The notes under the pieces are model-generated. The model was given only the letters and a program-made list of their open reading frames with translations. It was not told the DNA's origin and did not search any database. From contig JANLIR010000002.1 of NCBI GenBank assembly GCA_024654025.1, forward strand, positions 21,885-85,884: a stretch of 64,000 nt of DNA. Reading direction: 5' to 3'. This document shows positions 8,095 through 48,485 of the stretch, one piece after another. This DNA comes from Candidatus Wolfebacteria bacterium (GTDB taxonomy: Bacteria; Patescibacteriota; Minisyncoccia; UBA6257; UBA9933). Position 1 is the stretch's first letter. Every line of letters starts with the position of its first letter. A program made the position numbers and the translations under genes.

Positions 8095-8117
8095 TTGTTT
8101 AATTATAATCCGTAAAC

Positions 8118-14846: not shown

Positions 14847-14860
14847 GATGAGCAATTAAT

Positions 14861-18245: not shown

Positions 18246-18246
18246 A

Positions 18247-19716: not shown

Positions 19717-19752
19717 TTTTACTCTTTTTTTTAATTCGAGTACTATAAGGAT

Positions 19753-20703: not shown

Positions 20704-20708
20704 ATTTT

Positions 20709-21530: not shown

Positions 21531-21536
21531 ATTTTT

Positions 21537-22244: not shown

Positions 22245-22245
22245 T

Positions 22246-22833: not shown

Positions 22834-22837
22834 AATC

Positions 22838-24490: not shown

Positions 24491-24507
24491 AAACTTCAGT
24501 TTTTATT

Positions 24508-26252: not shown

Positions 26253-26266
26253 AATTAAGCGTAATT

Positions 26267-27214: not shown

Positions 27215-27223
27215 TATAAAATT

Positions 27224-28705: not shown

Positions 28706-28714
28706 TTTTTAAAA

Positions 28715-29659: not shown

Positions 29660-29667
29660 TTTAAAAA

Positions 29668-30411: not shown

Positions 30412-30475
30412 AAGAATAAAATATTAGGATAGTAAAAACATAGCGAAAAATTCGTTCTTGGTCAAATACAATAAT

Positions 30476-30506
30476 AAAAACCGCGGTCACATCACTGTGG
30501 CCGCGG
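30476..30506 (-). terminator. Rho-independent terminator downstream of the NeuB-like gene
   Basis: GC-rich hairpin CCGCGGTCACA-TCAC-TGTGGCCGCGG preceded on the + strand by AAAAA (a U-run on the minus-strand transcript). Confidence 0.6.
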
Positions 30507-30547
30507 CACTTTTCAAAACCCGAACAAGGTCCAGATAACCGCTTAAA

Positions 30548-31453
30548 TCACCTACCTCCGACATAATACGGCAGCAGGGTTTCCTTTCGTCTCAGTTTTT
30601 TCGCGATGGGAATTTCGGTCTCGAGAATTTCTTTCGTGTGGTTCCCGAGATAAGTCGGAAGCGATCGTAGCTCTTTTGTCAGCTTTACAAGCCCGCCGAC
30701 TTCCAAGCTGGCAGCTTGATCGCTGCCCCACATCGCCCGGTCCAAAGTGATGTGCCTTTCGACAACTCGGGCGCCAAGCGTCGCGGCAACAAGAGACGCG
30801 TACGCACCCACTTCGTGCCCCGAATAACCGATAATCGCTCTGGGGAATTCATTGATCAGCCGCGGTATGTTGTTAAGATGAAGCTCCGAGTCCTTCGACG
30901 GATAAGTGGAAGTGCAGTGAAGAATCACGAGCCCGTCTTCACCCAGAGTGTCAACGATCTTTTCGATCATCTTGTCATCGCTCATGCCAGTAGAAACGAT
31001 TACCTGCCGACCCTTAGACTTTACGTACTCCAAAAGTTCCCGGTCGGTGTTGGTGGCAGAAGCGATTTTGTAGCACGGCGGGTTATATTGCTCCAGAAAA
31101 TCCACGCTTTGTTCATCCCACGGCGAGGCAAACCACATTATGCCTTTTTCCTCACAGTAACAGTGGATTTCATCGTATTCATCCTTACCGAACTCCAGAC
31201 CCCTTTTTAAATCACCGTTGGTCACGCCAAACGGATTTTCCCGAGGCCGCGCCAACTCTTCGGAAGTATATACCACTTCAATCGTCCGCTTCTGGAATTT
31301 CACTGCGTCACAACCCGCTTCAACAGCAGCATCGATAAGTTGTTTGGTAATATCAATGTCTCCGTTGTGGTTGATGCCGATTTCCGCGATAACGAATACG
31401 GGCTGGCCTTCGCCCACCAGTTTCGGCCCGATCTTGACTATTCTCATCCTCAT
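30548..31453 (-). CDS. NeuB-family PEP-condensing sugar synthase (sialic acid / Kdn-9-P synthase-like); short form without a C-terminal SAF domain
   Basis: MRMRIVKIGPKLVGEGQPVFVIAEIGINHNGDIDITKQLIDAAVEAGCDAVKFQKRT is the NeuB/SpsE N-terminus. Only 301 aa. GC of sampled 60-mers is 48-65% against ~38% in neighbouring genes. Confidence 0.7.
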   Translation of the reverse strand: MRMRIVKIGPKLVGEGQPVFVIAEIGINHNGDIDITKQLIDAAVEAGCDAVKFQKRTIEVVYTSEELARPRENPFGVTNGDLKRGLEFGKDEYDEIHCYCEEKGIMWFASPWDEQSVDFLEQYNPPCYKIASATNTDRELLEYVKSKGRQVIVSTGMSDDKMIEKIVDTLGEDGLVILHCTSTYPSKDSELHLNNIPRLINEFPRAIIGYSGHEVGAYASLVAATLGARVVERHITLDRAMWGSDQAASLEVGGLVKLTKELRSLPTYLGNHTKEILETEIPIAKKLRRKETLLPYYVGGR

Positions 31454-31650
31454 CCCCTTTCCTTATGTTTTTTTTAAAATCTTGGTAGATTTGCTGGCAT
31501 CACTATAAAGATAAAAAGACAGTTAGTCAATAACGCCTAGAATTACCAAGCACTACGGCTCCACCCTTAATAATAGGTCTTAAAAAAAACCCCGTTGCAG
31601 TACCACACAAGCAACGGGGGCTTAACCCAAACCGTACGCAGGAGATTTTT

Positions 31651-33045
31651 TTAGACATCTCTAAATCCCCTGAAATTCACGTTTTTCTCCAGATACAACC
31701 GCGCAGCTGCCTCAATATGCCGCTCGGACTGATCGATATGAAATTTCTCGATCAGCTTTTTATTTACCTCAAACAATAATCTGTGCACCTTATCATCACT
31801 CATATCGGTAAAATTGACGGCCAGCAGATCGGAGTTTAAGTGTTTTCTTTCGTAAAAATCTTCCGGACCATCAAGAAGACCTTTTTCTATGGCGTAGTAA
31901 TACAACGGCGAACCAGGATACGGAGTAACCGGCCGGATAGTCCGAAGTTGAGAATGATCGTCATATTTCAACAAAAACTCCAATCCCATTCTCAACGACT
32001 GAGCCGTCTCGCCAATATTACCGAAAATAATATTGAATCCCGGGCTAATTCCCACCATAAGCGTATTTCTGATTCCGCTTTCAATCTGCTTTACCGTCAA
32101 CGCCTTATTCATTCTTTTCAGAGCCGCTTCGTCCATTGATTCAATGCCATAATTGATGAAAACACAGCCGGACTTTTTCATCAGCCGTAAAACATCCGGC
32201 TTAGCGTAATTGAGCCTGCCATTGCATTCCCAGTTTATTTTCAAATTCGCATCCAAAAAAACCTGGCACAACTCTTTTACACGCTGCTCTGAATTCATCA
32301 ACAATTCATCATAAAAGGCGAAATAATCTATCTGGTAGCAATCTTGAAGGGTTTTTATCTCCTCAACGATACTTCGCGAACTTCGAATCCTGAGCCCTTG
32401 GTCCATTCGATAACAAAAGTTGCATTTGAATTTACAGCCCCTTCCAGAAAGCATTATCATGCACCGCTGAGAATTCAAAATATTGGGCATTCTTGCCAGT
32501 GCGTAATGCTCCATAGGAAAAAGATCCCAGGCTGGAAACGGAATCCGATTAATATCCGCAATCAGTTCCCGCCTCTTGTTTTGGACGAACTGCCCGTTGT
32601 CGCAATCAAAAAAAGCAATGCCGCTAATATCCTTGAAGCTTCTGGAAGTTTCCAAAACGCTCAATAATTCCACAAAGGTTTCCTCGCCTTCGCCGATAAC
32701 CACCGCGTCAGCTCCGGTTTTTTTCAAAAAATATTCCGGTTCAGGAGAAGGGCCATGACCACCGATAACAAAAAACGGCCTGTTTTTGGAGTTATTTATC
32801 GCAACCGAAATCTTTAACAATTTCCGGTATTGATAATATCCCCCGATTACGCCGACGCCGATTACATCCCAGGCTTCGTTGTTCAAAAAATTAGTCAGGT
32901 GCTCTTCGGGCCAGTGATAAACGTCCTGATTGTAAATCCTTACCTCGTGTCCGGCCAAGCGGCAAGCTGACGCAAGATACGCCAACCCAAGCGGAAAAAA
33001 AGAAATGTGCGAATCATTGTCGTAAGCGACCAAAAGAACCTTCAT
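31651..33045 (-). CDS. B12-binding radical SAM enzyme (class B radical SAM, probable methyltransferase)
   Basis: N-terminal B12-binding domain (MKVLLVAYDNDSHISFFPLGLAYLASA), then a GRGCKFKCNFC CxxxCxxC cluster. The start was chosen at 33045 because of a strong AGGGGGA RBS 5 nt upstream; the track start at 33135 is probably too long. Confidence 0.7.
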   Translation of the reverse strand: MKVLLVAYDNDSHISFFPLGLAYLASACRLAGHEVRIYNQDVYHWPEEHLTNFLNNEAWDVIGVGVIGGYYQYRKLLKISVAINNSKNRPFFVIGGHGPSPEPEYFLKKTGADAVVIGEGEETFVELLSVLETSRSFKDISGIAFFDCDNGQFVQNKRRELIADINRIPFPAWDLFPMEHYALARMPNILNSQRCMIMLSGRGCKFKCNFCYRMDQGLRIRSSRSIVEEIKTLQDCYQIDYFAFYDELLMNSEQRVKELCQVFLDANLKINWECNGRLNYAKPDVLRLMKKSGCVFINYGIESMDEAALKRMNKALTVKQIESGIRNTLMVGISPGFNIIFGNIGETAQSLRMGLEFLLKYDDHSQLRTIRPVTPYPGSPLYYYAIEKGLLDGPEDFYERKHLNSDLLAVNFTDMSDDKVHRLLFEVNKKLIEKFHIDQSERHIEAAARLYLEKNVNFRGFRDV

Positions 33046-33138
33046 CGTATCCCCCTTTAATCCATTTTTTATTTTTAAGCTTCCGCTATGAGTTTTATCC
33101 AAAAACCGCAAAGTGTCAATAAACCAAAAATTCAAAAA

Positions 33139-33978
33139 TTACCAAGCGCTCCGGCCGCCTTCAATAACAAGCGTTGCTCCGGTCATATATGAAGAGGCAT
33201 CTGAAACAAGAAACAAAACAGCGGCGTTATATTCGTTTTGATCAGCCATTCTTCCCATAGGAATAAGATTAGAAAGTTTCTGCAAAAACTCTTCGTTATG
33301 ATCTCTATACACTCCGCCCGGGGCAATAGCGTTTACCCTGACTCCATTTTTCGCCCAATAGGTCGCTAGATACTTCGTAAGCCCAATAAAAGCATGCTTC
33401 TCAACGGAATAAGTCACCGGCTTTACCGGCTGTTCAAATTCAGGCACTCCCTCTTTCTTGTAAATCCGCTGATCCGGAGCGATAATTCCCAAATCGGAAG
33501 CGATATTTAAAATAACTCCTTTGTTTTGAGACGCCATATAACTACCAAACACCTGACTGCATAAAAAAGCTCCTTTAAGCCCGACATTAAGCGCTTCATC
33601 CCATTCTGTTTCGCTAAAATTTTCAAAACGAGAGGAAATGTCTTTTTCTTTTCCTTGTATTGTGGGGTTCGGATTATGCGAAGCGCAATTTATCAGTACG
33701 TCAATTCGGTTGTATTGTTTTAAAATCAATTCTTTAGCTTTCTCCAGTTCATCTTTATTCGCTATATCAACTTTTAATCCCATCACTTCAACTTTGTATT
33801 TTTCTTTAAAACTGGTCACTAAAGATTTTAATTTTTCTTCATCAACGTCAAAAAGGACAGGAATGCCTTTCGCGTCTAATATCGCTTGCGCAAACCGGCT
33901 TCCCAAAAATCCCGCGCCGCCGGTAATAATACATATTCTGCCGTCAATTAAAAATTTTTGAAGCGTATTTTCATCCAT
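33139..33978 (-). CDS. Short-chain dehydrogenase/reductase (SDR)
   Basis: ICIITGGAGFLGSRFAQAIL Rossmann motif; YSVEKHA is close to YxxxK. Confidence 0.7.
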   Translation of the reverse strand: MDENTLQKFLIDGRICIITGGAGFLGSRFAQAILDAKGIPVLFDVDEEKLKSLVTSFKEKYKVEVMGLKVDIANKDELEKAKELILKQYNRIDVLINCASHNPNPTIQGKEKDISSRFENFSETEWDEALNVGLKGAFLCSQVFGSYMASQNKGVILNIASDLGIIAPDQRIYKKEGVPEFEQPVKPVTYSVEKHAFIGLTKYLATYWAKNGVRVNAIAPGGVYRDHNEEFLQKLSNLIPMGRMADQNEYNAAVLFLVSDASSYMTGATLVIEGGRSAW

Positions 33979-33988
33979 AATTTATATT

Positions 33989-34933
33989 TTATAATTTAGG
34001 CCAAAGCGCCGGATCAACTTGCTTCGGATCATCAATGGCTAATTTTTGTAAAGCGCTTATAGTATCTTCGCTAAGCGGCCCCGCCGAAATCGCGCTAATC
34101 ATGGATTTTAAATGTTCCTTTCGATTAGTACCGACTAAAACACTAGTAACTGATTCGTTTGAAATAGCAAAACGAATAGCGAGCGTAGGCAAATCCATGC
34201 CCGCTTCCTTCGCGATATTATCAGCTTTATCCGCATTTAGTTTTAAAGACGCTAACTCGTCCGGAAGCTTCGCCCTAAGAGGCGTTAAAGATCCCTTAAG
34301 AAGAACAGAACGGTTAACAACCCCTACATTACTTTTTTTTGCGTATGGCAAAACTTCTTTTGCCATACGCTGGTCTAAAATACTATATGCCACTTGAATT
34401 ACATCAAAAAATCCGCTTTCAATGGCCGCAAGAGCATTATCTTCGCCACGCAAAGAAATCCCGAAATTTTTTACCTTTCCTTCACTTCTAATCTTACTTA
34501 AAATATCCGTTACCTCGCCTTTTTCAATATCAACACGCGTTCCCCCATGAAGATAAAGCAATGGCAAGACATCAAGTTGAAGTTTTTTCAAACTTGTTTC
34601 AACTTCATCACGGACGCGAAGTTCCATCTCATCGTACGGAAGTTTTTCTCCTTTTTCCAAAAATTGAGCGCATTTCGTTCCCACAAGAATATCCGGGTTT
34701 TTCAAAATTCCCGACCTGCCAATTCGCTCCTCTGAAAGAGCGTAAACATGAGCGGTATCAAAATAAGTGACGCCCATATCAGCCGCGGCTTTAAGCAAAT
34801 AATCCGCTTCGTCGTCAGAAGGCAAATGACGTTCTCCTATGCCGTATGCAAAACCGATTTCGGCAGTGCCCAAACCAATAAGAGACACTTCCTTTTCGGT
34901 ACGACCTAGTAACCGTGATAAAATCTTATCCAT
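33989..34933 (-). CDS. Aldo/keto reductase
   Basis: 314 aa AKR-like (VTYFDTAHVYA...), with a predicted TIM-barrel oxidoreductase architecture. Confidence 0.65.
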   Translation of the reverse strand: MDKILSRLLGRTEKEVSLIGLGTAEIGFAYGIGERHLPSDDEADYLLKAAADMGVTYFDTAHVYALSEERIGRSGILKNPDILVGTKCAQFLEKGEKLPYDEMELRVRDEVETSLKKLQLDVLPLLYLHGGTRVDIEKGEVTDILSKIRSEGKVKNFGISLRGEDNALAAIESGFFDVIQVAYSILDQRMAKEVLPYAKKSNVGVVNRSVLLKGSLTPLRAKLPDELASLKLNADKADNIAKEAGMDLPTLAIRFAISNESVTSVLVGTNRKEHLKSMISAISAGPLSEDTISALQKLAIDDPKQVDPALWPKL

Positions 34934-35423
34934 TATTTAAAATATTATCAGCCCTGTCTTTTAATATCAAATCACAAATTTCTCTAACAGCGTGGTCGCC
35001 TCCTTTTCTTGTAGTTACATAATGCGCTATTTTTTTACACTCCTCGTCTCCGTCTGCAACTGTAAAGGCGGTGCCAACAAATTTTAAACATTCAAGGTCA
35101 TTTATATCGTCTCCCATAAACGCCGTTTCTTCGACTAAAATATTTTCTCGCTCGATAAGTTGCTTTAAAATATCTATTTTTTTATCAGCGCTCTGAAAAC
35201 ATTCTATTTCCATCTTTTCGCATCTTTTTTTAACAATCAAATTCTTTTCTTTAGAAATGACGGCTAGTTTTATCCCGGCATTCTTTAACTCCGAGAAGCG
35301 CAAAGTATCCTTCCGGCTGCAAATAACGCTTTCAGTTCCGTTTTGATCTGTTAATACTTTGCCGTCGGTAAAAACGCCGTCGAAATCGAAAACTATCAAT
35401 TTGATTTTAGAAAAATCTTTCAT
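34926..35423 (-). CDS. KdsC-family HAD phosphatase (Kdo-8-P / Kdn-9-P phosphatase-like)
   Basis: IKLIVFDFDGVFTDGKV (motif I DxDGV) and AFMGDDINDLE (motif IV); 165 aa, typical of the C0 subfamily. Confidence 0.75.
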   Translation of the reverse strand: MKDFSKIKLIVFDFDGVFTDGKVLTDQNGTESVICSRKDTLRFSELKNAGIKLAVISKEKNLIVKKRCEKMEIECFQSADKKIDILKQLIERENILVEETAFMGDDINDLECLKFVGTAFTVADGDEECKKIAHYVTTRKGGDHAVREICDLILKDRADNILNNG

Positions 35424-35437
35424 TTTTAAATCTTTAA

Positions 35438-36700
35438 TTAATTTCCCGCGGACGAAAGTATCGCCTCCGTGATAACCATAACCGCCTCACGAATGGCTTC
35501 AGCGGTTATAGTTAAAGGAGGGGCTATTTTTATAGATTTTTTAAAAGTACAAACCGGCAGAACTCCGTTATAAATGCATTTTTTAACAATCTCCGTAGCA
35601 ATGTCGGCATTTTCAAAAATTATACCCGCAATCAGCCCCTTCACGTTTACAAGCTTAACCAAACTTAAATCTGCAAGATTGCCGATTTCCTTCTCAAAAA
35701 TTTGAATCGTTTCTTGACGTTTTACGCTTTGCTCTTCGGAACTTAAAAACTCTAAATTTGCCAATCCCGCCGCGCAACAAATTGGATTCCCGGAATGAGT
35801 TCCGTGCAAATCAGTATTTTCGTCAACATCAGCCAATTCTTTTCTCATTAAAACCGCTGAAATAGGCAGGGACGAAGATATGCCCTTACCTACACAAATC
35901 AAATCCGGCTCTAAATCGCCGTAAGTCATATATCCGTATACAGGCCCCATCCGATAAAATCCGGATTGCATTTCGTCAAAACAAACCAAAGCTCCGGCTT
36001 CTTTAGCAAATTTATACAAGTCGCCTATAAATTTTTCTGGATAAAACCAAGCTCCCCATCCTTGGAATGTCTCAAGAAAAAAAGCGGCAATCTGATCCTT
36101 TGGGGGCAACTTACTTTCGTCAAACTGAACAAAATCTTCATAAGGAAAGTCCAAAAAATAAACATCGTCGTCAGACACATTAGCCCATTGAGCGTTACTT
36201 TTATTTACTCCTATTAAATCATTACTCAAACCTCTTCCATGATAACTACCCGTAAAAGTGATTATATATTTTTTATTATTTTTTTTAGCCCATAGTTTTA
36301 TCAGTTTATACGCGCCATCAACAGCTTCGGACCCGGAATTTAATAGAACAACCTTGCTGAAATATTTTGGAGATATTTCCAATAGCTTAGAAATAAATTT
36401 ATATTTTATAGCTGTCGGATAATTGTAAGAGAACATCAAATCCGAATCTAACTGCTTTTTTATGGCTTCTTTTATAAAAGGGTTGGAGTGGCCGGCGTTG
36501 GCGACAAAAATACCGGAAGTTAAATCTATCCATTTGTTTCCCTGCTCGTCATAAACTGAAAAATCAATCGCTTTATCCCAAGTTAAAGAAATAGGATTGA
36601 CCGCCGGAATCGGCTCCAGTTCGGATATTTTTTCATATAATTCATTATTTTCCAGTGAAAAATCTTTTCGTATCTGCCTATATTTTGTATTAATTTTCAT
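35438..36700 (-). CDS. Class III PLP-dependent aminotransferase
   Basis: 420 aa; ...LLNSGSEAVDGAYKLIKLWA...FTGSYHGR...DEMQSGFYRMGPVYG..., with a conserved Lys in ICVGKGISS. Confidence 0.7.
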   Translation of the reverse strand: MKINTKYRQIRKDFSLENNELYEKISELEPIPAVNPISLTWDKAIDFSVYDEQGNKWIDLTSGIFVANAGHSNPFIKEAIKKQLDSDLMFSYNYPTAIKYKFISKLLEISPKYFSKVVLLNSGSEAVDGAYKLIKLWAKKNNKKYIITFTGSYHGRGLSNDLIGVNKSNAQWANVSDDDVYFLDFPYEDFVQFDESKLPPKDQIAAFFLETFQGWGAWFYPEKFIGDLYKFAKEAGALVCFDEMQSGFYRMGPVYGYMTYGDLEPDLICVGKGISSSLPISAVLMRKELADVDENTDLHGTHSGNPICCAAGLANLEFLSSEEQSVKRQETIQIFEKEIGNLADLSLVKLVNVKGLIAGIIFENADIATEIVKKCIYNGVLPVCTFKKSIKIAPPLTITAEAIREAVMVITEAILSSAGN

Positions 36701-37547
36701 ATAAATTTATGCCGAATTCATTAAATTTATTTTTAATCCATTCCAATTGCCTTTTAAAAATTTCTATCCCTTCGTCATCGCGATAAGCCTGTATGGTAAA
36801 AAACCCACTATAACCAATTTTAGAAAGTCCGGTAAAAATTTTATCAAATTGCGTGTCTCCTGTTCCTAATTCTACAGAACCAGAACCAATTTTCCTATCT
36901 TTTATGTGAATATTACTGATTTTATTGCCATAAGCCACAAATTCTTTTTGCGGGTCATACCCCAAAAAAGCGCTGTTTCCAGTATCATAATTTACCGTGA
37001 CCCGTCTGGAATTAAAATTATTGAGCAATTGAGTAAAAGGCTCGGGAGCGAGATCCGTTTCCAAAGAAAGATTGACTTCACTTTTTTCCAGAAAATCTAT
37101 TATCAGCTTAACATTTTCTGAAAACTGTTTAATATCTTCCGAGCCTAAAATCGCTGTTTTTTCAAGGCAAGGAAAAACAATGTTAGATACGCCCATTTTA
37201 GAAGCGTTGGCTATCAGCTTTTTTAAAACTTCAAGATTTTGCTTAATGTCGCCGTCCGTAACATTGTGGATTGGCGCTTCCATAAAATAATCGGCGCAGA
37301 TATTTTTTACCAAAACCCCCGTTTTATCGCTCAATTCAATGATTTCTTTAAGGCCTTCGTCAGTCATAAGAGGATTATTTTGAAAATTTTCATAATCAAA
37401 TAAAAATTCTATTGAGCCCAAGCCCAATTCTTTCGCTATTAGGAATTCATCCTGCCAATACTCGGCTGGATGGGCTTGATAACGCCCTTTGTGTTTTGGG
37501 AGCAATCTGCCTTGCATAACCCCTATTCTATTAACCGATTTATTCAT
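36690..37547 (-). CDS. Sugar-phosphate isomerase/epimerase (xylose-isomerase-like TIM barrel)
   Basis: 285 aa, AP-endonuclease-2/xylose-isomerase-like fold predicted from IGVMQGRLLP...LGSIEFLFD. Confidence 0.5.
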   Translation of the reverse strand: MNKSVNRIGVMQGRLLPKHKGRYQAHPAEYWQDEFLIAKELGLGSIEFLFDYENFQNNPLMTDEGLKEIIELSDKTGVLVKNICADYFMEAPIHNVTDGDIKQNLEVLKKLIANASKMGVSNIVFPCLEKTAILGSEDIKQFSENVKLIIDFLEKSEVNLSLETDLAPEPFTQLLNNFNSRRVTVNYDTGNSAFLGYDPQKEFVAYGNKISNIHIKDRKIGSGSVELGTGDTQFDKIFTGLSKIGYSGFFTIQAYRDDEGIEIFKRQLEWIKNKFNEFGINLYEN

Positions 37548-38281
37548 AAATCATTTTTAAACATGATAACAGCTTTTTCGTATCTTTCGGGTGTCCCTAT
37601 GTCTATAAACCTTCCGCTGCCTTTAAATCCATAACAATTAAGCTCCAAAACTTTCGGAATTAAATCATGCTCAAGGGAAAAAGAATCAGCCTTAGGCATA
37701 TTTTTAAAAATATCTTTTTTAACAAGATAAATTCCCGCATTCACCAAGCCCTTCTCCTTTTTTTGATTTTTTCCTTTAAAACGGCTGATTTTATTATTAT
37801 TGTCCAACTCGACACTTCCGTAATCAGAAACATCGTCAACTTCTGTCAACGCAATCGAAAGCAAAGAATCATTTTTTAAATGCATGTCGAAAAAATCGAA
37901 AAAATCGATATCAAAAAAAGAGTCCCCATTCATCACCATAAAATGATCGCCAGATATTAAAAATTCGGTGTTTTTAATCGCACCCCCAGTGCCCAAAGGA
38001 GCGCTTTCCTCAGAGAATAAAATTTCGGCGTTTTCGTAATTTTCATAACGATTAATTATCTGATCTTTTAAATATCCAACGCTTAAAATTATTCGCTTAA
38101 ATCCCTTTGATAAAAGATTATCAATTATAATATCCAAAAACGCCTTATTATCCCCCATAGGAGCCAGCACTTTCGGACGGTCGTTTATAACGCTTTTCAA
38201 TCTCTCCCCTTTCCCGCCGCAAAGAATAACAACATCAATATCCTTTAAATTCTTATGGGTGAAAGGTTTCTGTTGGCGCAT
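37544..38281 (-). CDS. Sugar-phosphate nucleotidyltransferase (second copy)
   Basis: IDVVILCGGKGERLKSVINDRPKVLAPM. Confidence 0.7.
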   Translation of the reverse strand: MRQQKPFTHKNLKDIDVVILCGGKGERLKSVINDRPKVLAPMGDNKAFLDIIIDNLLSKGFKRIILSVGYLKDQIINRYENYENAEILFSEESAPLGTGGAIKNTEFLISGDHFMVMNGDSFFDIDFFDFFDMHLKNDSLLSIALTEVDDVSDYGSVELDNNNKISRFKGKNQKKEKGLVNAGIYLVKKDIFKNMPKADSFSLEHDLIPKVLELNCYGFKGSGRFIDIGTPERYEKAVIMFKNDL

Positions 38282-39257
38282 AATAAATTATTTGACTCCC
38301 AACGTTTTCAAATTTGAAAGGAACGTGGAGTAAATTTTTTAGTTTTTCTTTCACTTTTAGCTGCAGTTCCGGCTCGACAAAAAGCAGCATAAAACCGCCG
38401 CCTCCAGCTCCCAAAAGCTTTCCTCCGATAGCGCCCGCCTCTTGTCCAGCTGTATAAATCTCATCTATTACGGGATTAGTAATTTGAGAAGATAAAGATT
38501 TTTTAATTTTCCACCCTTCATGTAAAAGCTTGCCAAAATCTTCTAAATTATCGTTTCCGCTTAATATATTTATTCCTTCATCAACCATCTGCATCATAGC
38601 TCTAATTTCTGAAGTTTTATTATGAGTGTTTTTTATCTGTTCAGCCGCGATATCAGAAGCATTTCTTGATAAGCCGGTGAAAAAAAGCATTAAATGATCT
38701 TGAAATAAGCGCCACTTATTAAAATCCAAGGATATTGGTTTAACTGTTATTTTTTGAAGGCCGCCGAATTCAATTTTATTAAAACCGCCAAATGCCGCTA
38801 TTGTTTGATCCTGACAACCGACATTTTCTTTAATTCTCTCTTGTTCTATATGAATCGCGTCCAACGCCAATTGTCTTTTTGTTATCATTCTTCCCTTTAA
38901 TGCATTTAAAGCATGTAGTAGTCCAACCGTAAAAGTAGAGCTGGAACCAAGGCCGGAACGGGCGGGCAAATCCGCATCATGATGAATTTCAATTCCATCG
39001 TTTATGTCAAGGAACTTTAAAGTTTCCCTTACCGAGGGATGTTGAATTTCATCAACGCCTTTTACATTTTCCAATTTTGACCATATTATTCGGCTTTTAT
39101 GTTCAAAAAAGGGAGGTAAATATCTACAAGTAATGTAACAATATTTATTTATTGTTGTGGCGAGTACAGCGCCTCCGTTGTTATTTTCATACCAAACAGG
39201 ATAATCGCTTCCTCCCCCAAAAAAAGAGATTCTAAAAGGCGTTCTTGTGATAACCAT
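38253..39257 (-). CDS. GHMP-family sugar kinase (second copy, paralogous to 22838..23887)
   Basis: RTPFRISFFGGGSDYPVWY; LGSSSTFTVGLLHALN. Confidence 0.7.
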   Translation of the reverse strand: MVITRTPFRISFFGGGSDYPVWYENNNGGAVLATTINKYCYITCRYLPPFFEHKSRIIWSKLENVKGVDEIQHPSVRETLKFLDINDGIEIHHDADLPARSGLGSSSTFTVGLLHALNALKGRMITKRQLALDAIHIEQERIKENVGCQDQTIAAFGGFNKIEFGGLQKITVKPISLDFNKWRLFQDHLMLFFTGLSRNASDIAAEQIKNTHNKTSEIRAMMQMVDEGINILSGNDNLEDFGKLLHEGWKIKKSLSSQITNPVIDEIYTAGQEAGAIGGKLLGAGGGGFMLLFVEPELQLKVKEKLKNLLHVPFKFENVGSQIIYYAPTETFHP

Positions 39258-39360
39258 AAATTTTATTTACATAAGCAATATAACGCAATAGGAATAAAAA
39301 TCAAATAAAAATGGCGGTCGGGTTTCCCCGTCCGCCAAGCGATAAATTCTGATACGCTAT

Positions 39361-40851
39361 TTACTCCAAAAGCTTCCTTTTGAGAATAATTTGGCTCATT
39401 TTCCGGATATGCTCCGCCGTTGTTTTCCCGAATTTCGCGTGAATCATATTAAGATAAGACGCGCTTGAAAAATACTTCTGAAACGCCTTGTCCCGAAATC
39501 GCAGAACTTCCGCAGCTGAAAGCTTGTCTGTCGGAAGAGGCAAACATTCGTAAGCATGCTGTGAATACCCAATCCACCCAGGACCACCCTCATCATCCGG
39601 CAAAGGTAATTTACCTTTAGCGGCACGGTACAAAGCCGAACCCGGATAAGCCATGGCGCAATAGAAATTCGCCCATTCGGCGTTTATTTCTAAAGCTAGA
39701 TCAAGGGTTTCTTGCATTGAATCTAAAGTATCGTCCGGTAAGCCGAAGATATAGTTCGCCCCCACATAAATATCAGCTTTCTGTATTTTTCTGGCAACTT
39801 TAATCACATCTTCATTGCTAAATTTCTTTCGGGCGCTATTTCTTACGTGTTTACTTCCTGATTCAATTCCTAAAGCCAACCATCTGAAACCAGCCTTCCT
39901 TAACCGCTCAAGAAATTTATCCTTGATTGTATCCACGCGAGCGTAAGCCCAAATATTCAAATCGTAACCGCGTTCAATAATCCTGTCGCAAATGCCCAAT
40001 ACGTGCGCCTCGTTTAAAACGAACATCTCATCAACGATTTTTATATTTCGCACACCGTACCTGTTGACGAGAATATCAATTTCCTTAATCACGCGGTCTG
40101 GAGAAAACATCCGATAAGACGACTTGCCGAATGGCGCGTTGATGCAGCAGAAAATGCACGAAAACGGGCACCCGAAGGAAGTGTAAATCGCCGCGTAGGG
40201 TTTTCTCTTACCGACATTCTCAAAACAATGCCAGTTGTGCGCCCGATAATTACCCATCGGCAAAAGATCCCACGCCGTGATATCAAATTCCTCATCAAGA
40301 TCATTAATGAGAGGCGCAGTTTTTTTTGAACGCGCGATATGCCCTGCTGAGTCGCGATACCATAAATTACTAACCTTACTAAAATCGCTTGAGACAGACC
40401 TGAACGCAAGCAACGTCTCATAGATAGTAACTGGGCCTTCTCCCTCGCACACGAAATCAACACATTCCTCATTCAAAGTCCTTTCAGGAAGCGCGGAAGG
40501 ATGGGTCCCCACCATCATGATTTTGCACTCCGGCATCTCTACCTTAATCGCTCTGCACACCTCGCTGGCTGCAGGCATATTTTGAGTTGACGCCGACGGC
40601 TGATGGCCTTGAACCACCACAACAATCAAAACCGGCTTACACTTTTCAATAGCTTTTAATACGTCTTTTACTTCCATGCCCATTCCAGGCATATCGGCTA
40701 TCAGCGCGCTGCAATTTTTCAGTCGAAGATAATTCGCAAATAGGCCCGCCAGCGCGGGCGGCTCTATCGCGGAAAAATCCTCACCCAATTTCTGAAAAAC
40801 AGCTTTGGGATTACCAGGCACAATAAACAACACATCCACCAATGATTTCAT
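39361..40851 (-). CDS. B12-binding radical SAM enzyme (second copy)
   Basis: N-terminal B12-binding domain (VLFIVPGNPKAV...), then FGCPFSCIFC. GC of sampled 60-mers is 53-55%. Confidence 0.7.
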   Translation of the reverse strand: MKSLVDVLFIVPGNPKAVFQKLGEDFSAIEPPALAGLFANYLRLKNCSALIADMPGMGMEVKDVLKAIEKCKPVLIVVVVQGHQPSASTQNMPAASEVCRAIKVEMPECKIMMVGTHPSALPERTLNEECVDFVCEGEGPVTIYETLLAFRSVSSDFSKVSNLWYRDSAGHIARSKKTAPLINDLDEEFDITAWDLLPMGNYRAHNWHCFENVGKRKPYAAIYTSFGCPFSCIFCCINAPFGKSSYRMFSPDRVIKEIDILVNRYGVRNIKIVDEMFVLNEAHVLGICDRIIERGYDLNIWAYARVDTIKDKFLERLRKAGFRWLALGIESGSKHVRNSARKKFSNEDVIKVARKIQKADIYVGANYIFGLPDDTLDSMQETLDLALEINAEWANFYCAMAYPGSALYRAAKGKLPLPDDEGGPGWIGYSQHAYECLPLPTDKLSAAEVLRFRDKAFQKYFSSASYLNMIHAKFGKTTAEHIRKMSQIILKRKLLE

Positions 40852-40945
40852 AACTCCCCCTATCTTTCTGTATTATTTTTTTGGGAAATCTACTAACGAA
40901 ACTATATAGCTCTAAAGTATTTGAAGTCAAGTAAAAAATAAGCGT

Positions 40946-41380
40946 TTATAAGCGCTTATTTTTTATAACTGTTTTTATTTTCCCAATAATTTTGCCAATC
41001 TCTTGTTTCGATAAAATCTTTCTTTCCTTTCTGTAATTATCTATATCTCCCAACAAAACTTTCGGAATAATATGGAAATGAAAATGCTTTATGCTTTTAC
41101 CGGCGTTATTGCCGTCTCTCCCTAAAATTGAACAATCTTTATAACCAAAAGATTGGAGTATTTTTACGGCTAAGCTCACTAAATCCAACATTTCATCTCG
41201 TTCTTTTTTTCTTAAATCTAAAAAGGACTCAGTATGACGCTTAGGGACAACCAGCAAATGATCCTTATGATAAGGGGCTAACGCGTAAGTTAAAAAAGAA
41301 AACTTCTTTTCAATAATCCTTTCTTGCGGCAAACAAAAAGGGCATTGTTTTGATTTTTTCAGAAAATCGCCGTATAACAC
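40946..41380 (-). CDS. HIT-family nucleotide hydrolase/transferase
   Basis: HFHFHIIP histidine-triad motif; CPFC zinc-binding motif at the N-terminus. Confidence 0.7.
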   Translation of the reverse strand: MLYGDFLKKSKQCPFCLPQERIIEKKFSFLTYALAPYHKDHLLVVPKRHTESFLDLRKKERDEMLDLVSLAVKILQSFGYKDCSILGRDGNNAGKSIKHFHFHIIPKVLLGDIDNYRKERKILSKQEIGKIIGKIKTVIKNKRL

Positions 41381-41385
41381 GTTGT

Positions 41386-42321: not shown

Positions 42322-42322
42322 A

Positions 42323-43495: not shown

Positions 43496-43506
43496 TTCTT
43501 AAATTC

Positions 43507-45272: not shown

Positions 45273-45314
45273 AAATATTACTATAAATTATCATGATTAC
45301 TCAAATAATCAAAA

Positions 45315-46250: not shown

Positions 46251-46274
46251 TTTGTATATAAAAATAGGTAAAAT

Positions 46275-46874: not shown

Positions 46875-46993
46875 AGTTTTATAAATTTTAAATTAAAAAT
46901 TATTTTTTATGTTTTTCTATTTTAAGACCCAATTCTTTAAGTTGTTTCTCCTCAACTTCCGAAGGCGCTTCCCCCGTCAGTATAAGCTAACGC

Positions 46994-48466: not shown

Positions 48467-48485
48467 ACCCCGTAGTAGTAGAAAA

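What the first reader, a model, noticed from the sequence alone, without database searches (positions are those of the whole stretch)
31651..40851. Two B12-binding radical-SAM enzymes inside a nucleotide-sugar pathway block
Class B radical SAM enzymes (B12-binding N-domain plus CxxxCxxC) are rare in glycan loci. Where they are known (GenK, Fom3, and the MoeK5- or TsrM-like enzymes) they C-methylate unactivated carbons. Here two of them are interleaved with a second GHMP kinase / nucleotidyltransferase pair, a class III aminotransferase, an isomerase, SDR and AKR reductases and a KdsC-like phosphatase. This suggests an NDP-sugar that is aminated and C-methylated, possibly twice. Such a sugar would be a novel monosaccharide.
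Basis: inference. Interest (0 to 1): 0.55.

Follow-up and report, generated by a model that had tools for sequence, protein, structure and literature searches.

The report
Two radical enzymes, two sugar cassettes
A surface-sugar gene cluster of a tiny candidate-phylum bacterium carries two uncharacterised B12-type radical SAM enzymes that belong to two separate, widely spread sugar-building cassettes (a sialic-acid-like sugar and a modified seven-carbon sugar), pointing to sugar chemistry that has not yet been described.

Summary
The two enzymes are 26% identical and belong to two independently conserved cassettes, not to one pathway.

- **rSAM1** travels with nonulosonic-acid genes (NeuB in 33 and CMP-synthetase in 29 of 48 related loci). 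Here it sits in a CMP-ulosonic-acid cassette together with the class III aminotransferase, TIM-barrel epimerase, KdsC phosphatase, SDR and AKR.
- **rSAM2** travels with a GDP-heptose cassette that extends beyond the given interval, to 46250. This cassette holds HddA/HddC-like genes, a Cj1427-like C4-dehydrogenase, a ColD-type 3-dehydratase (His replaces the catalytic Lys, so it is not an aminotransferase), a thiamine-dependent carboligase and an Fcl-like reductase.

Neither family reaches any curated family threshold. The nearest models are BchE and HpnJ, which are non-methylating, and AprD4 is the nearest solved structure. C-methylation is therefore plausible, more so for rSAM1, but unproven. 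Both families are widespread and, as far as the searches here reached, uncharacterised. They could explain the recently detected C10 ulosonic acids and, more speculatively, carbocyclic sugars such as caryose.

The parts
31651..33045 (-). rSAM1: class-B-type radical SAM enzyme (464 aa from the ATG at 33045; the ORF extends to a TTG at 33135). It is an accessory enzyme of nonulosonic-acid clusters.
   Evidence: Pfam B12-binding plus Radical_SAM. CKFKCNFC motif. The GG (G95-G96) and GEGE (118-121) cobalamin-domain motifs are invariant in 32 homologues. Orthologues at 60-71% identity occur in many phyla. Their neighbours include NeuB in 33 of 48 loci and CMP-synthetase in 29 of 48. The AF2 model has pLDDT 90.4; the best PDB fold match is AprD4 (TM 0.74), then TsrM, MgmA, OxsB, CysS and TokK.
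39361..40851 (-). rSAM2: class-B-type radical SAM enzyme (496 aa). It is an accessory enzyme of a GDP-heptose modification cassette.
   Evidence: Pfam. CPFSCIFC motif. Best NCBIfam hit is HpnJ at 159 bits against a cutoff of 578. Orthologues at 51-83% identity. Neighbours in 58 loci: GHMP2 52, Cj1427-like 52, DegT 49, NTP2 49; a ThDP enzyme in 52. AF2 pLDDT 90.4; fold matches TsrM, AprD4 and OxsB at TM 0.65-0.71. The cobalamin motifs are only partly kept: G115-T116 and E138-G139.
30548..31453 (-). Short NeuB-like ulosonic acid synthase (301 aa). Pfam finds only the NeuB domain.
   Evidence: Pfam NeuB 242.9 bits. NCBIfam NeuB 228 bits (cutoff 400) and PseI 196 bits (cutoff 340), both below cutoff. 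PDB matches SpsE, NeuB and PseI at 117-140 bits. Homologues at 48-61% identity lie beside rSAM1 orthologues in L090, L097, L098, L104, L136, L158 and L168.
29668..30411 (-). CMP-ulosonic acid synthetase (cytidylyltransferase)
   Evidence: Pfam CTP_transf_3. PseF model 146.6 bits, cutoff 205.7. Copies at 47-54% identity occur in the same related loci.
33139..33978 (-). SDR oxidoreductase next to rSAM1 (PtmA-like)
   Evidence: Pfam adh_short. NCBIfam PtmA 128 bits, cutoff 350. A copy at 48% identity lies directly beside the 71%-identical rSAM1 orthologue in L087 and L168.
33989..34933 (-). Aldo/keto reductase
   Evidence: Pfam Aldo_ket_red 141.9 bits. Weakly conserved in related loci (2 of 35).
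34926..35423 (-). KdsC-type sugar-acid phosphate phosphatase. Its presence implies that the synthase uses a phosphorylated aldose.
   Evidence: TIGR01670 113.8 bits, above the cutoff of 106.95. The Kdn-9-P phosphatase model scores 104 bits.
35438..36700 (-). Class III (omega-type) aminotransferase of the ulosonic-acid cassette
   Evidence: Pfam Aminotran_3 230.5 bits. Best PDB match is acetylornithine aminotransferase at 153 bits. Copies at 33-39% identity lie beside CMP-synthetase and rSAM1 orthologues in L095, L097, L136, L158 and L168.
36690..37547 (-). Xylose-isomerase-like TIM barrel, a probable sugar-phosphate 3-epimerase or isomerase
   Evidence: Pfam AP_endonuc_2. PDB UlaE 51.8 bits. 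Copies at 50-56% identity in L136 and L168 lie between NeuB and CMP-synthetase.
27224..29659 (-). GT2-like glycosyltransferase (27224-28705) and class I methyltransferase (28715-29659) that travel with cassette A
   Evidence: Pfam. GT2_c homologues at 41-46% identity lie next to or one gene from rSAM1 orthologues in L098 and L158, and MT_b-like genes occur in L097 and L136. The whole stretch 27224-37547 has no counterpart in the closest relative, L007.
37544..39257 (-). NTP2 (37544-38281, HddC-like guanylyltransferase) and GHMP2 (38253-39257, HddA-like heptose-phosphate kinase). Both belong to cassette B.
   Evidence: NCBIfam HddC 175 bits (cutoff 300) and HddA 146 bits (cutoff 600). GHMP2 orthologues (median 59% identity) are present in 52 of 58 rSAM2 loci and usually adjacent to rSAM2.
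40946..41380 (-). HIT-family nucleotide hydrolase or transferase inside cassette B
   Evidence: Pfam HIT 53.1 bits. Conserved only in the closest relative L007 (87% identity). A NUDIX hydrolase sits two genes downstream of the rSAM2 homologue, after the kinase, in Azospirillum lipoferum.
41386..42321 (-). Cj1427-like GDP-heptose C4-dehydrogenase
   Evidence: 411 bits over the full length to PDB 6vo6/6vo8, 'putative sugar-nucleotide epimerase/dehydratase'. From my own knowledge this entry is C. jejuni Cj1427; its function is described in PMC10680097. Orthologues occur in 52 of 58 rSAM2 loci.
42323..43495 (-). ColD-type PMP-dependent sugar 3-dehydratase (DegT fold, not an aminotransferase)
   Evidence: Best PDB match is ColD 2gms at 180.7 bits. 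His sits at the ColD H188 position in the segment FSLYFGHQLSTIEGG. 46 of 47 DegT-family genes beside rSAM2 orthologues also have His there.
43507..45272 (-). Split transketolase (TK_C 43507-44454, TK_N 44451-45272): a ThDP-dependent carboligase, the candidate C-branching enzyme
   Evidence: Pfam and NCBIfam transketolase halves. ThDP enzymes of three different architectures accompany rSAM2: ALS/YerE-like, E1 alpha/beta, and split transketolase.
45315..46250 (-). Fcl-like GDP-sugar epimerase/reductase
   Evidence: NCBIfam GDP-L-fucose synthase 490.3 bits, cutoff 500. A homologue at 52% identity lies directly upstream of the rSAM2 homologue on the A. lipoferum plasmid.
21537..24490 (.). Core GDP-D-glycero-D-manno-heptose genes: NTP1, GmhA-like SIS and GHMP1 on the minus strand, GmhB-like HAD on the plus strand
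   Evidence: Pfam and NCBIfam.
16908..50606 (.). The surrounding Wzx/Wzy-type surface-glycan locus: Bac_transf 16908-18245, Wzx 18247-19716, glycosyltransferases and methyltransferases 20709-29659, Wzy_C 48486-50606
   Evidence: Pfam.

Best explanation
The interval is the junction of two independent sugar-precursor cassettes inside one Wzx/Wzy surface-glycan locus of a Candidatus Wolfebacteria genome. Each cassette carries its own class-B-type radical SAM enzyme.

Cassette A (about 27224-37547) makes a CMP-activated sialic-acid-like (ulosonic) sugar. A sugar phosphate is epimerised or isomerised by the TIM barrel, with a SIS isomerase elsewhere in the locus. The short NeuB condenses it with PEP. 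The KdsC-type phosphatase removes the phosphate. SDR/AKR and the class III aminotransferase oxidise and aminate it, and the cytidylyltransferase activates it. rSAM1 is an accessory tailoring enzyme of nonulosonic-acid pathways. It most likely uses cobalamin to add a methyl carbon to an unactivated carbon of the sugar acid or of its N-acyl group.

Cassette B (37544-46250) starts from GDP-D-glycero-D-manno-heptose (GHMP2, NTP2). The Cj1427-like enzyme oxidises C4. The ColD-like enzyme removes the C3 hydroxyl. The split transketolase adds a two-carbon branch to the 4-keto group, and the Fcl-like enzyme reduces it. rSAM2 carries out one further radical carbon-carbon step on this skeleton: a C-methylation or a ring closure.

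Shown here: the gene identities, the two-cassette architecture, the dehydratase identity of the DegT gene, and the linkage of each radical enzyme to its cassette. Inferred: the order of steps, the substrates and the actual radical chemistry.
For: Two cassettes:
- rSAM1 and rSAM2 are 26% identical.
- Beside rSAM2 orthologues (58 genome loci): GHMP2 52, Cj1427-like 52, DegT 49, NTP2 49. SDR, AKR, HAD, AT3 and TIM: 0.
- Outside Nitrospira (28 loci, about 15 lineages): ThDP enzyme 23, GHMP 20, NTP 19.
- Beside rSAM1 orthologues (48 metagenome loci): NeuB 33, LegC/PseC-type DegT 32, LegB/PseB-type 29, CMP-synthetase 29.
- In Desulfoscipio geothermicus the rSAM1 orthologue sits between flagellin and Maf genes and a complete Leg-type gene set.
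- In a Brocadiaceae contig the best rSAM1 orthologue (71%) follows NeuB-SIS-TIM-CMP synthetase-AT3-SDR-SDR, the same content as the window.
- The closest relative, L007, has cassette B at 66-96% identity directly followed by glycosyltransferases. It has no cassette A.

Cassette B chemistry:
- Cj1427-like match of 411 bits.
- ColD-like match with His instead of Lys, in 46 of 47 relatives as well.
- In vitro, Cj1427 plus a C3-dehydratase make GDP-3-deoxy-4-keto-heptose (PMC10680097).
- ThDP enzymes branch 4-keto-3-deoxy sugars, as YerE and ErwE do (PMC9306805).

Cobalamin and methylation for rSAM1:
- The PF02310 domain scores above its cutoff.
- The N-domain aligns to the B12 domains of BchE, PhpK, HpnR and KedN5.
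- The GG and GE motifs are invariant.
- Unexplained C10 CMP-ulosonic acids (+CH2 on the backbone marker) and +14.01 Da CMP-NulOs have been reported (preprint 10.64898/2026.04.20.719630). Kuenenia, one of the organisms concerned, has an rSAM1 orthologue.
Against: - No biochemical datum exists for either family.
- Both score highest against non-methylating models (BchE, HpnJ), and AprD4 is the best sequence and fold match for rSAM1.
- rSAM2 keeps the cobalamin GG and GE motifs only in part.
- The window has no cobalamin uptake or synthesis gene and no cobalamin riboswitch.
- Homologues occur in reduced genomes (Patescibacteria, Simkania, Nanoarchaeota). From general knowledge, such genomes usually lack B12 synthesis.
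- The ThDP linkage of rSAM2 is not universal. On Azospirillum lipoferum plasmid AZO_p6, only Fcl-like, kinase and NUDIX genes flank it. In Paramagnetospirillum it sits with an aminotransferase, an HMGL-like enzyme and E1 alpha/beta, without heptose genes.
- Locus counts are biased towards Nitrospira (30 of 58).
- AKR, HAD and TIM are only sporadically conserved beside rSAM1.
Confidence: 0.6

Rival explanations
1. One reading: one pathway in 31651-40851 builds a single NDP-sugar that is aminated by the class III aminotransferase and C-methylated, possibly twice, by the two radical SAM enzymes.
For: All genes are co-oriented and tightly packed on the minus strand. Both cassettes recur side by side in some other metagenome contigs: L098, L120, L154, L156, L158 and L168.
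Against: None of SDR, AKR, HAD, AT3 or TIM occurs in 58 rSAM2 loci, and NeuB occurs in only 1. rSAM1 occurs mostly in canonical Leg-type clusters without any heptose genes. The closest relative has cassette B without cassette A. Cassette A is activated as a CMP-sugar acid, not as an NDP-sugar.
Confidence: 0.06
2. Neither enzyme is a methylase; both do other radical chemistry on sugars. rSAM1 would be an AprD4-like 1,2-diol dehydratase that works with the adjacent SDR/AKR (as AprD4 works with AprD3) to deoxygenate the ulosonic acid, or to create a ketone for the class III aminotransferase. rSAM2 would be an HpnJ/BchE-like carbon-carbon cyclase or rearrangement enzyme. For example, it could close C7 of the heptose onto the carbonyl of a ThDP-installed acetyl branch to give a caryose-type carbocyclic nonose.
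For: - AprD4 is the best PDB match by sequence for both enzymes (72 and 63 bits) and the best fold match for rSAM1 (TM 0.74, same length and architecture).
- An SDR lies directly beside rSAM1 here and beside its 71% orthologue.
- The best curated model for rSAM2 is HpnJ (159 bits, near full length), ahead of every methylase model.
- rSAM2 lacks a clean GG/GE cobalamin motif.
- The conserved partners of rSAM2 (heptose activation, C4 oxidation without 6-deoxygenation, C3 deoxygenation, ThDP acyl transfer) map one to one onto the skeleton of caryose, 4,8-cyclo-3,9-dideoxy-nonose. Its biosynthesis is stated to be unknown (PMC9092360).
- The same review says radical SAM enzymes are implicated or postulated in forming sugar-derived cyclopentane rings (calditol synthase Cds, HpnJ, and the pactamycin pathway).
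Against: - All of these similarity scores are far below family cutoffs.
- The AprD4 model aligns only to the radical SAM core of rSAM1, whereas true B12 families align to its N-domain as well. rSAM1 also has invariant GG and GE motifs.
- rSAM1 also occurs in Leg-type clusters, where (from textbook knowledge of the Leg pathway) the 9-deoxy group already comes from LegB.
- An rSAM2 homologue occurs without a ThDP or ColD gene within 12 kb in Azospirillum.
- No link to Trinickia (Burkholderia) caryophylli could be tested.
Confidence: 0.27
3. The radical SAM enzymes do not act on the sugars. They would modify something else (a small acyl donor or amino acid for the ThDP enzyme, a lipid carrier, or the glycosylated protein) and would merely be co-located with the sugar genes.
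For: In Paramagnetospirillum the rSAM2 homologue sits in an aminotransferase - rSAM - HMGL-like aldolase - E1 alpha/beta unit without heptose genes. In Nitrospira a class I/II aminotransferase and a ThDP enzyme flank it directly. Both arrangements fit preparation of an alpha-keto-acid donor. ErwE-type ThDP enzymes do use tailored keto acids. In Kuenenia the rSAM1 orthologue has no NeuB within 10 kb.
Against: rSAM2 and the heptose kinase are adjacent in most lineages, including Azospirillum, which lacks ThDP genes nearby. rSAM1 is tightly linked to NeuB and CMP-synthetase in two thirds of loci across phyla.
Confidence: 0.07

Closest known systems
Gentamicin C6' tailoring: GenK (cobalamin radical SAM C-methyltransferase) with GenQ dehydrogenase and GenB1 class III aminotransferase. 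Also Fom3 acting on a CMP-linked substrate. (From my own knowledge; the 2026 review lists GenK, Fom3 and MoeK5 as known B12 radical SAM enzymes.)
   Same: A class-B radical SAM enzyme next to an oxidoreductase and a class III aminotransferase in a sugar pathway. Methylation of a hydroxymethyl carbon, then oxidation, then transamination would fit cassette A. The substrate may be nucleotide-linked, as for Fom3.
   Different: No detectable family membership. The methylase models PhpK, HpnR, KedN5 and TsrM score 47-110 bits against cutoffs of 500-700. The context is a primary surface glycan (CMP-ulosonic acid), not an antibiotic. The activity is untested.
AprD4/AprD3 (apramycin 3'-deoxygenation): a radical SAM 1,2-diol dehydratase with a B12-like but cobalamin-free N-domain, plus a reductase
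   Same: Closest solved structure for rSAM1 (TM 0.74, similar length) and a top hit for rSAM2. Acts on a sugar. An adjacent SDR-type reductase is present here too.
   Different: Only 18-21% identity. The NCBIfam AprD4 model scores 79-83 bits against a cutoff of 500 and aligns only to the radical SAM core. rSAM1 keeps the GG and GE cobalamin motifs.
HpnJ (hopanoid cyclitol-ether formation) and BchE (anaerobic Mg-protoporphyrin cyclase): B12-domain radical SAM enzymes that form five-membered carbocycles
   Same: Best-scoring curated models: HpnJ 159 bits for rSAM2, BchE 125 bits for rSAM1. HpnJ is thought to act on an amino sugar.
   Different: Scores are far below the cutoffs (578 and 481). There are no hopanoid or bacteriochlorophyll genes in the neighbourhood.
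Campylobacter jejuni capsular GDP-heptose modification pathway: HddA, HddC, Cj1427 C4-dehydrogenase, HS:5 C3-dehydratase, Cj1428-type reductases
   Same: Cassette B has the same enzyme types. The Cj1427-like protein matches PDB 6vo6 at 411 bits. Cj1427 together with a C3-dehydratase gives GDP-3-deoxy-4-keto-heptose in vitro.
   Different: C. jejuni has no ThDP carboligase and no radical SAM enzyme in this pathway. According to that paper, 3-deoxy-heptoses that keep the C6 hydroxyl were made only in vitro there. HddA, HddC and Fcl scores here are below the equivalog cutoffs.
Yersiniose and erwiniose branching: E1/ColD-type 3-dehydration followed by the ThDP-dependent YerE or ErwE and the YerF reductase
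   Same: 3-deoxy-4-keto nucleotide sugar plus ThDP carboligase plus reductase.
   Different: Those pathways use CDP-hexoses and ALS-like ThDP enzymes. Here the sugar is a GDP-heptose, the ThDP enzyme is a split transketolase (E1 alpha/beta or ALS-like in other lineages), and a radical SAM enzyme is added.
Legionaminic and pseudaminic acid pathways (LegB/C/H/G/I/F, PtmA/E)
   Same: rSAM1 orthologues sit mostly inside such clusters, including a flagellin-Maf island. NeuB-, PseF- and PtmA-like genes are present here.
   Different: The window has no LegB/PseB-LegC/PseC pair and no NeuC-type hydrolysing epimerase in cassette A. It has instead a class III aminotransferase, a TIM-barrel epimerase and a KdsC phosphatase, and its NeuB lacks the SAF domain. 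No radical SAM step is known in Leg or Pse biosynthesis.

Membership tests
Class B (cobalamin-dependent) radical SAM enzymes | [quoted passage not shown] | tested here: met
   CKFKCNFC (C204/208/211) and CPFSCIFC (C228/232/235) are invariant in 32 and 33 homologues. Radical_SAM Pfam scores are 64 and 71 bits.
Class B (cobalamin-dependent) radical SAM enzymes | N-terminal Rossmann-type B12-binding domain (PF02310) | tested here: met
   62.1 and 43.4 bits against a cutoff of 32.1. The AF2 models show the Rossmann domain and match TsrM, OxsB, TokK, CysS and MgmA.
Class B (cobalamin-dependent) radical SAM enzymes | GG (beta4) and GE (start of alpha5) motifs that hold the base-off cobalamin tail (review PMC9204698) | tested here: inconclusive
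   rSAM1: G95-G96 and G118-E119-G120-E121 are invariant. rSAM2: only G115-T116 and E138-G139 are invariant, and G137 is present in 13 of 33. So the test is met for rSAM1 and partly met for rSAM2.
Class B (cobalamin-dependent) radical SAM enzymes | Actual cobalamin binding and cobalamin-dependent turnover | not testable with these tools
   No cobalamin genes or riboswitch in the 64 kb window. The rest of the genome was not available.
Characterised B12 radical SAM C- and P-methyltransferase families (PhpK, Sden_1168, HpnR, KedN5, TsrM, RiPP C-MT, MCR Gln C-MT) | Score at or above the curated NCBIfam cutoff | tested here: not met
   Best scores are 110 bits (PhpK, rSAM1) and 93 bits (PhpK, rSAM2) against a cutoff of 600. 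The others score 47-89 bits against cutoffs of 280-700.
BchE / HpnJ / ladderane-lipid B12 radical SAM (non-methylating) | Score at or above the curated NCBIfam cutoff | tested here: not met
   BchE 125 and 126 bits (cutoff 481). HpnJ 120 and 159 bits (cutoff 578). Ladderane 122 and 91 bits (cutoff 360).
AprD4 radical SAM diol dehydratases | Score at or above the curated cutoff, with a full-length match | tested here: not met
   83 and 79 bits against a cutoff of 500; only the core (residues ~187-447) aligns. The fold similarity is nevertheless high (TM 0.68-0.75).
ColD/E1-type PMP-dependent sugar 3-dehydratases (gene 42323-43495) | His in place of the Schiff-base Lys of DegT aminotransferases | tested here: met
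   His aligns with ColD H188, the position mutated in PDB 3b8x and 2r0t. 46 of 47 relatives beside rSAM2 orthologues also have His.
Cj1427-type GDP-heptose C4-dehydrogenase (gene 41386-42321) | Close full-length similarity to the solved enzyme | tested here: met
   410.9 bits, residues 2-310 against 3-311 of PDB 6vo6. That this entry is Cj1427 rests on my own knowledge; the structural paper could not be opened. Substrate use was not tested.
HddA / HddC / Fcl equivalogs | Score at or above the NCBIfam equivalog cutoff | tested here: not met
   HddA 146 bits (cutoff 600); HddC 175 bits (cutoff 300); Fcl 490.3 bits (cutoff 500, marginal). These are same-fold relatives. The function is inferred from context.
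NeuB / PseI / PseF nonulosonic acid enzymes | Score at or above the NCBIfam equivalog cutoff, and the NeuB plus SAF two-domain architecture | tested here: not met
   NeuB 228 bits (cutoff 400), PseI 196 bits (cutoff 340), PseF 147 bits (cutoff 206). Pfam finds only the NeuB domain in the 301-aa protein, whereas Leg-type neighbours of rSAM1 orthologues have NeuB plus SAF.
KdsC-type (YrbI) phosphatases | Score at or above the TIGR01670 cutoff | tested here: met
   113.8 bits against a cutoff of 106.95.

The most novel reading that the evidence does not exclude
At least one of the two enzymes makes a carbon-carbon bond on a sugar backbone, a reaction not known in glycan biosynthesis. One possibility is that rSAM1 extends a nonulosonic acid by one carbon, producing the CMP-activated C10 ulosonic acids recently detected by mass spectrometry with no known origin. 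The other is that rSAM2 closes C7 of a 3-deoxy-4-C-acetyl-heptose onto the branch carbonyl, giving a caryose-type carbocyclic sugar whose biosynthesis has been open since the 1990s.
Probability: 0.22. Interest if true: 0.85.

Novelty: new variant of a known kind. Interest (0 to 1): 0.62.

Why it matters
Cobalamin-type radical SAM enzymes are known in antibiotic sugar tailoring (GenK, GenD1, MoeK5, Fom3) but not in the biosynthesis of cell-surface glycans. This analysis defines two large families that are conserved across phyla. Each has more than 100 clusters (grouped at 90% identity) at 60% identity or more, from Patescibacteria, anammox bacteria, Nitrospira, Firmicutes, Proteobacteria, Chlamydiota and archaea. 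Each family is tied to a specific pathway: nonulosonic acids for one, and GDP-heptose-derived 3-deoxy branched sugars for the other.

This gives concrete candidate genes for two open observations. The first is the unexplained C10 (+CH2) CMP-ulosonic acids and +14 Da NulO variants. The second is the unknown origin of higher-carbon or carbocyclic LPS sugars such as caryose. Culturable carriers are available for testing: Desulfitobacterium, Herbaspirillum and Azospirillum lipoferum 4B.

The finding also raises the question of how CPR bacteria, Simkania and a Nanoarchaeota MAG obtain or dispense with cobalamin. Nonulosonic acids on flagella and S-layers affect phage and immune recognition, so a new modification enzyme would have practical relevance.

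Tried and rejected
1. Erwiniose idea. I considered heptose plus rSAM methylation at C7 plus a two-carbon branch. I dropped it because erwiniose is explained by the ThDP enzyme ErwE using 4-hydroxy-2-oxopentanoate on a CDP-hexose, with no radical SAM enzyme (PMC9306805).

2. Testing the caryose idea. A homologue search seeded with the Herbaspirillum protein listed no Trinickia or Burkholderia caryophylli among its 120 best hits. A cluster-member look-up of unnamed NCBI hits returned no organism names. The idea is therefore untested, not refuted.

3. Literature. Searches that combined radical SAM or cobalamin with flagellin glycosylation, nonulosonic, legionaminic, pseudaminic or heptose terms gave nothing relevant. 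The 2026 B12 radical SAM review mentions no glycan enzymes. A Herbaspirillum lusitanum LPS search gave no structure. The last search (bradyrhizose / radical SAM) was swamped by generic radical SAM papers.

4. Fold search against the PDB. It did not separate cobalamin-dependent methylases from AprD4 for rSAM2, and only weakly for rSAM1.

5. Rfam scan for a cobalamin riboswitch. None was found; the only match was one tRNA.

6. Pfam scan of the rest of the window for cobalamin transport or synthesis genes. None was found.

7. Universal ThDP linkage of rSAM2. I rejected it after finding the Azospirillum lipoferum plasmid locus without one.

8. The Cj1427 structural paper (PMC7509852) could not be opened to confirm the PDB code.

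9. I did not use the search of protein representatives, because it returns no names or genomic context.

Full report
**1. What is in the sequence**

The window comes from a Candidatus Wolfebacteria MAG. Proteins identical to both radical SAM ORFs are on record from a 248,723-bp contig.

From 16908 to 50606 the window holds one large surface-glycan locus:
- an initiating Bac_transf sugar transferase and a Wzx-type flippase on the plus strand;
- a long run of minus-strand genes ending in a Wzy_C protein.

- ORF 31651-33135 and ORF 39361-40851 each combine a PF02310 B12-binding domain (62.1 and 43.4 bits; cutoff 32.1) with a Radical_SAM domain. Each has a CxxxCxxC motif. The first gene probably starts at the ATG at 33045.
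- Between them lie an SDR, an aldo/keto reductase, a HAD phosphatase that passes the KdsC subfamily cutoff, a class III aminotransferase, a xylose-isomerase-like TIM barrel (nearest to UlaE), a nucleotidyltransferase and a GHMP kinase.
- A first kinase/nucleotidyltransferase pair, with GmhA-like and GmhB-like genes, lies at 21537-24490.

**2. The two enzymes belong to two different cassettes**

The two radical SAM proteins are only 26% identical. Each has many orthologues at 50-83% identity in distant phyla.

I fetched 80 genome loci around rSAM2 relatives and 80 metagenome loci around rSAM1 relatives. I then asked which window genes recur beside them.

*Beside rSAM2* (58 loci longer than 15 kb):
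- the second GHMP kinase in 52, gene 41386-42321 in 52, the DegT-family gene 42323-43495 in 49, and the second nucleotidyltransferase in 49;
- the SDR, AKR, HAD, class III aminotransferase and TIM barrel in none.

The sample is biased: 30 of the 58 loci are Nitrospira. In the other 28 loci, from about 15 lineages (Patescibacteria, Nitrospina, Brocadia, Gammaproteobacteria, Alphaproteobacteria, Simkania, Omnitrophota, Methanoperedens), the pattern holds: a ThDP enzyme in 23, the kinase in 20, the nucleotidyltransferase in 19.

*Beside rSAM1* (48 loci longer than 8 kb):
- NeuB in 33, a LegC/PseC-type aminotransferase in 32, a LegB/PseB-type dehydratase in 29 and a CMP-sugar synthetase in 29;
- further clusters without a window counterpart whose size fits NeuC-like and PglD-like genes, as annotated in L001, plus PtmE-like and PtmA-like genes.

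In Desulfoscipio geothermicus the orthologue lies between flagellin and Maf genes and a complete legionaminic-acid-type gene set. In a Minisyncoccia MAG it lies next to a similar set.

The best orthologue (71%, a Brocadiaceae contig) follows NeuB - SIS - TIM barrel - CMP-synthetase - class III aminotransferase - SDR - SDR. This is the gene content of window 29668-37547. Smaller versions of the same set recur in L090, L097, L136 and L158.

The closest relative of the window (L007) has the rSAM2 cassette at 66-96% identity, followed directly by glycosyltransferases. It has nothing corresponding to 27224-37547.

The flagged interval is therefore the junction of two cassettes. Cassette A runs from about 27224 to 37547.

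**3. Cassette B: a GDP-heptose-derived, 3-deoxy, probably C-branched sugar**

- Gene 41386-42321 matches PDB 6vo6/6vo8 at 411 bits over its whole length. From my own knowledge this entry is C. jejuni Cj1427, and I could not open the structural paper to confirm it. [quoted passage not shown]
- The kinase and nucleotidyltransferase are HddA-like and HddC-like, but below the equivalog cutoffs.
- The DegT-family gene is most similar to ColD (180.7 bits). It has His where aminotransferases have the Schiff-base Lys; this is the residue mutated in PDB entries 3b8x and 2r0t. The same holds for 46 of 47 DegT-family genes beside rSAM2 orthologues, including those only 26-35% identical. These are 3-dehydratases, not aminotransferases.
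- Cj1427 plus the C. jejuni HS:5 C3-dehydratase make GDP-3-deoxy-4-keto-heptose in vitro. The window pair should make the same compound in vivo.
- Genes 43507-45272 are a split transketolase. In other lineages this slot is filled by an ALS/YerE-like ThDP enzyme (29 loci) or by an E1 alpha/beta pair (17-19 loci). Three different ThDP architectures in one slot argue for a ThDP-dependent acyl transfer onto the 4-keto group, as YerE and ErwE do on CDP-3,6-dideoxy-4-keto-hexose.
- Gene 45315-46250 is Fcl-like (490 bits; cutoff 500) and would reduce or epimerise the product.

The linkage is strong but not universal. On Azospirillum lipoferum 4B plasmid AZO_p6 the rSAM2 homologue (54%) is flanked only by Fcl-like, kinase and NUDIX genes. 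In Paramagnetospirillum it sits with a class I/II aminotransferase, an HMGL-like enzyme and E1 alpha/beta, without heptose genes.

**4. Cassette A: a CMP-activated ulosonic acid**

- The NeuB-like protein is short (301 aa; Pfam finds only the NeuB domain) and scores below the NeuB and PseI cutoffs.
- The cytidylyltransferase is PseF-like, also below cutoff.
- A KdsC-type phosphatase implies a phosphorylated aldose substrate. From my own knowledge, Kdn and animal sialic acid pathways work this way.
- The cassette has no LegB/LegC-type pair. The amino group would instead come from the class III aminotransferase after oxidation by the SDR or AKR.
- The exact sugar cannot be named from sequence.

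**5. What the radical enzymes do**

*No family membership.* The best NCBIfam scores are:
- rSAM1: BchE 125, ladderane-lipid enzyme 122, HpnJ 120 and PhpK 110 bits;
- rSAM2: HpnJ 159, ApyD 131, BchE 126 and PhpK 93 bits.

All lie far below cutoffs of 360-750 bits. The nearest solved protein by sequence is AprD4 for both.

*Fold.* The AlphaFold models (pLDDT 90.4 each) match AprD4 (TM 0.74 for rSAM1) and then TsrM, MgmA, OxsB, CysS and TokK.

*Evidence for cobalamin:*
- the PF02310 hits are above cutoff;
- the N-domains align to those of BchE, PhpK, HpnR, KedN5 and BzaD, whereas the AprD4 model aligns only to the core;
- rSAM1 has invariant GG and GE motifs of the kind described for OxsB, TsrM and TokK.

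*Evidence against, or neutral:*
- rSAM2 keeps these motifs only partly;
- the window has no cobalamin genes or riboswitch;
- homologues occur in Patescibacteria, Simkania and a Nanoarchaeota MAG.

*My reading.* For rSAM1, cobalamin-dependent C-methylation of the ulosonic acid or its acyl group is the most likely activity (about 0.5). It is consistent with two published observations:
- unexplained CMP-activated C10 ulosonic acids in Magnetospirillum gryphiswaldense, with backbone marker 311.10 against 297.09 and a 679/693/707 series;
- +14.01 Da CMP-NulOs in Kuenenia, which carries an rSAM1 orthologue.

The gentamicin trio GenK, GenQ and GenB1 (my own knowledge) is a close chemical analogy to rSAM1, SDR and the class III aminotransferase. 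The main rival for rSAM1 is an AprD4/AprD3-like deoxygenation with the adjacent SDR.

For rSAM2 I give methylation about 0.45 and a carbon-carbon cyclisation or rearrangement about 0.25. The conserved partners are heptose activation, C4 oxidation with the C6 hydroxyl kept, C3 deoxygenation and a ThDP two-carbon transfer. These map exactly onto the skeleton of caryose (4,8-cyclo-3,9-dideoxy-nonose) if a radical at C7 attacks the branch carbonyl. A 2022 review states that the origin of caryose is unknown and that radical SAM enzymes are implicated or postulated in forming related cyclopentane rings. I could not test whether the caryose producer carries the cassette.

**6.

The single-pathway, doubly methylated, aminated NDP-sugar model is not supported.

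I class the finding as a new variant of a known kind. These are class-B-type radical SAM enzymes recruited to nonulosonic-acid and GDP-heptose pathways, with no characterised member. No open-access paper found here describes them.

**7. Other observations**

NeuB, rSAM1 and rSAM2 are compositional outliers. Their GC3 values are 0.58, 0.50 and 0.48, against 0.29-0.40 for the other sugar and transferase genes of this block. They are bounded by the largest intergenic gaps of the block (94-197 bp, against -29 to +14 bp elsewhere). This fits the cross-phylum spread of their families and suggests that they move as individual accessory genes.

Noticed in passing
window 30548-33045 and 39361-40851: NeuB, rSAM1 and rSAM2 have much higher third-position GC (0.58, 0.50, 0.48) than the other sugar and transferase genes of this block (0.29-0.40). 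They are bounded by its largest intergenic gaps (94-197 bp, against -29 to +14 bp elsewhere). This suggests separate, more recent acquisition.
   Followed up: partly
window 42323-43495: The gene that looks like a DegT aminotransferase is a ColD-type 3-dehydratase: His replaces the catalytic Lys. The same holds for 46 of 47 relatives beside rSAM2 orthologues.
   Followed up: yes
window 27224-37547 compared with L007 7818-8420: The closest related contig (cassette B genes 66-96% identical) goes straight from the nucleotidyltransferase to the glycosyltransferases. The whole ulosonic-acid cassette, with its GT2 and methyltransferase, therefore looks like an insertion in the window lineage.
   Followed up: partly
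window 46275-48466: A nucleoside diphosphate kinase and a class II aminoacyl-tRNA synthetase (Asp/Asn/Lys type) sit between the last sugar gene and the Wzy_C gene, inside the glycan locus.
   Followed up: no
window 50769-55724 and 56001-59255: Two very large ORFs (1651 and 1084 aa) with PG_binding_1 and CarboxypepD_reg domains lie in a stretch of higher GC (0.45-0.48), directly after the glycan locus. They may be cell-surface proteins and possible glycosylation targets.
   Followed up: no
window 23876-24490 (+) and 22838-23887 (-): The GmhB-like phosphatase gene is on the opposite strand to the rest of the heptose genes. Its 5' end overlaps the 5' end of the first GHMP kinase gene by 12 bp.
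   Followed up: no
L003 867-2315, 4254-5798, 10001-11389, 18259-19734: A Kuenenia stuttgartiensis glycan locus holds four B12-domain radical SAM genes plus one plain radical SAM gene, among glycosyltransferases, methyltransferases and a LIC12162-family protein. One of the four is the rSAM1 orthologue.
   Followed up: no
L169 (Azospirillum lipoferum 4B plasmid AZO_p6) 601-7763 and 10693-15385: The rSAM2 homologue with Fcl-like, kinase and NUDIX genes lies next to a second gene set. That set holds a PEP-utilizing enzyme, a gamma-glutamyl hydrolase family protein, a cytidylyltransferase, an adenylyl-sulfate kinase and a methyltransferase. From memory it resembles the C. jejuni O-methyl phosphoramidate genes.
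   Followed up: partly
L070 (Paramagnetospirillum kuznetsovii) 2081-9645: An rSAM2 homologue (52%) sits in a unit of class I/II aminotransferase - rSAM - HMGL-like enzyme - E1 alpha/beta, next to another B12 radical SAM gene and without heptose genes. This hints that some family members may work on a keto-acid donor rather than on the sugar.
   Followed up: partly
window 8665-12894, 14241-14855 and 60586-60669: A 1409-aa protein with lamin-tail domains, a 204-aa protein with a PaaX/Cas2-like domain, and a single tRNA gene. All are unrelated to the finding.
   Followed up: no
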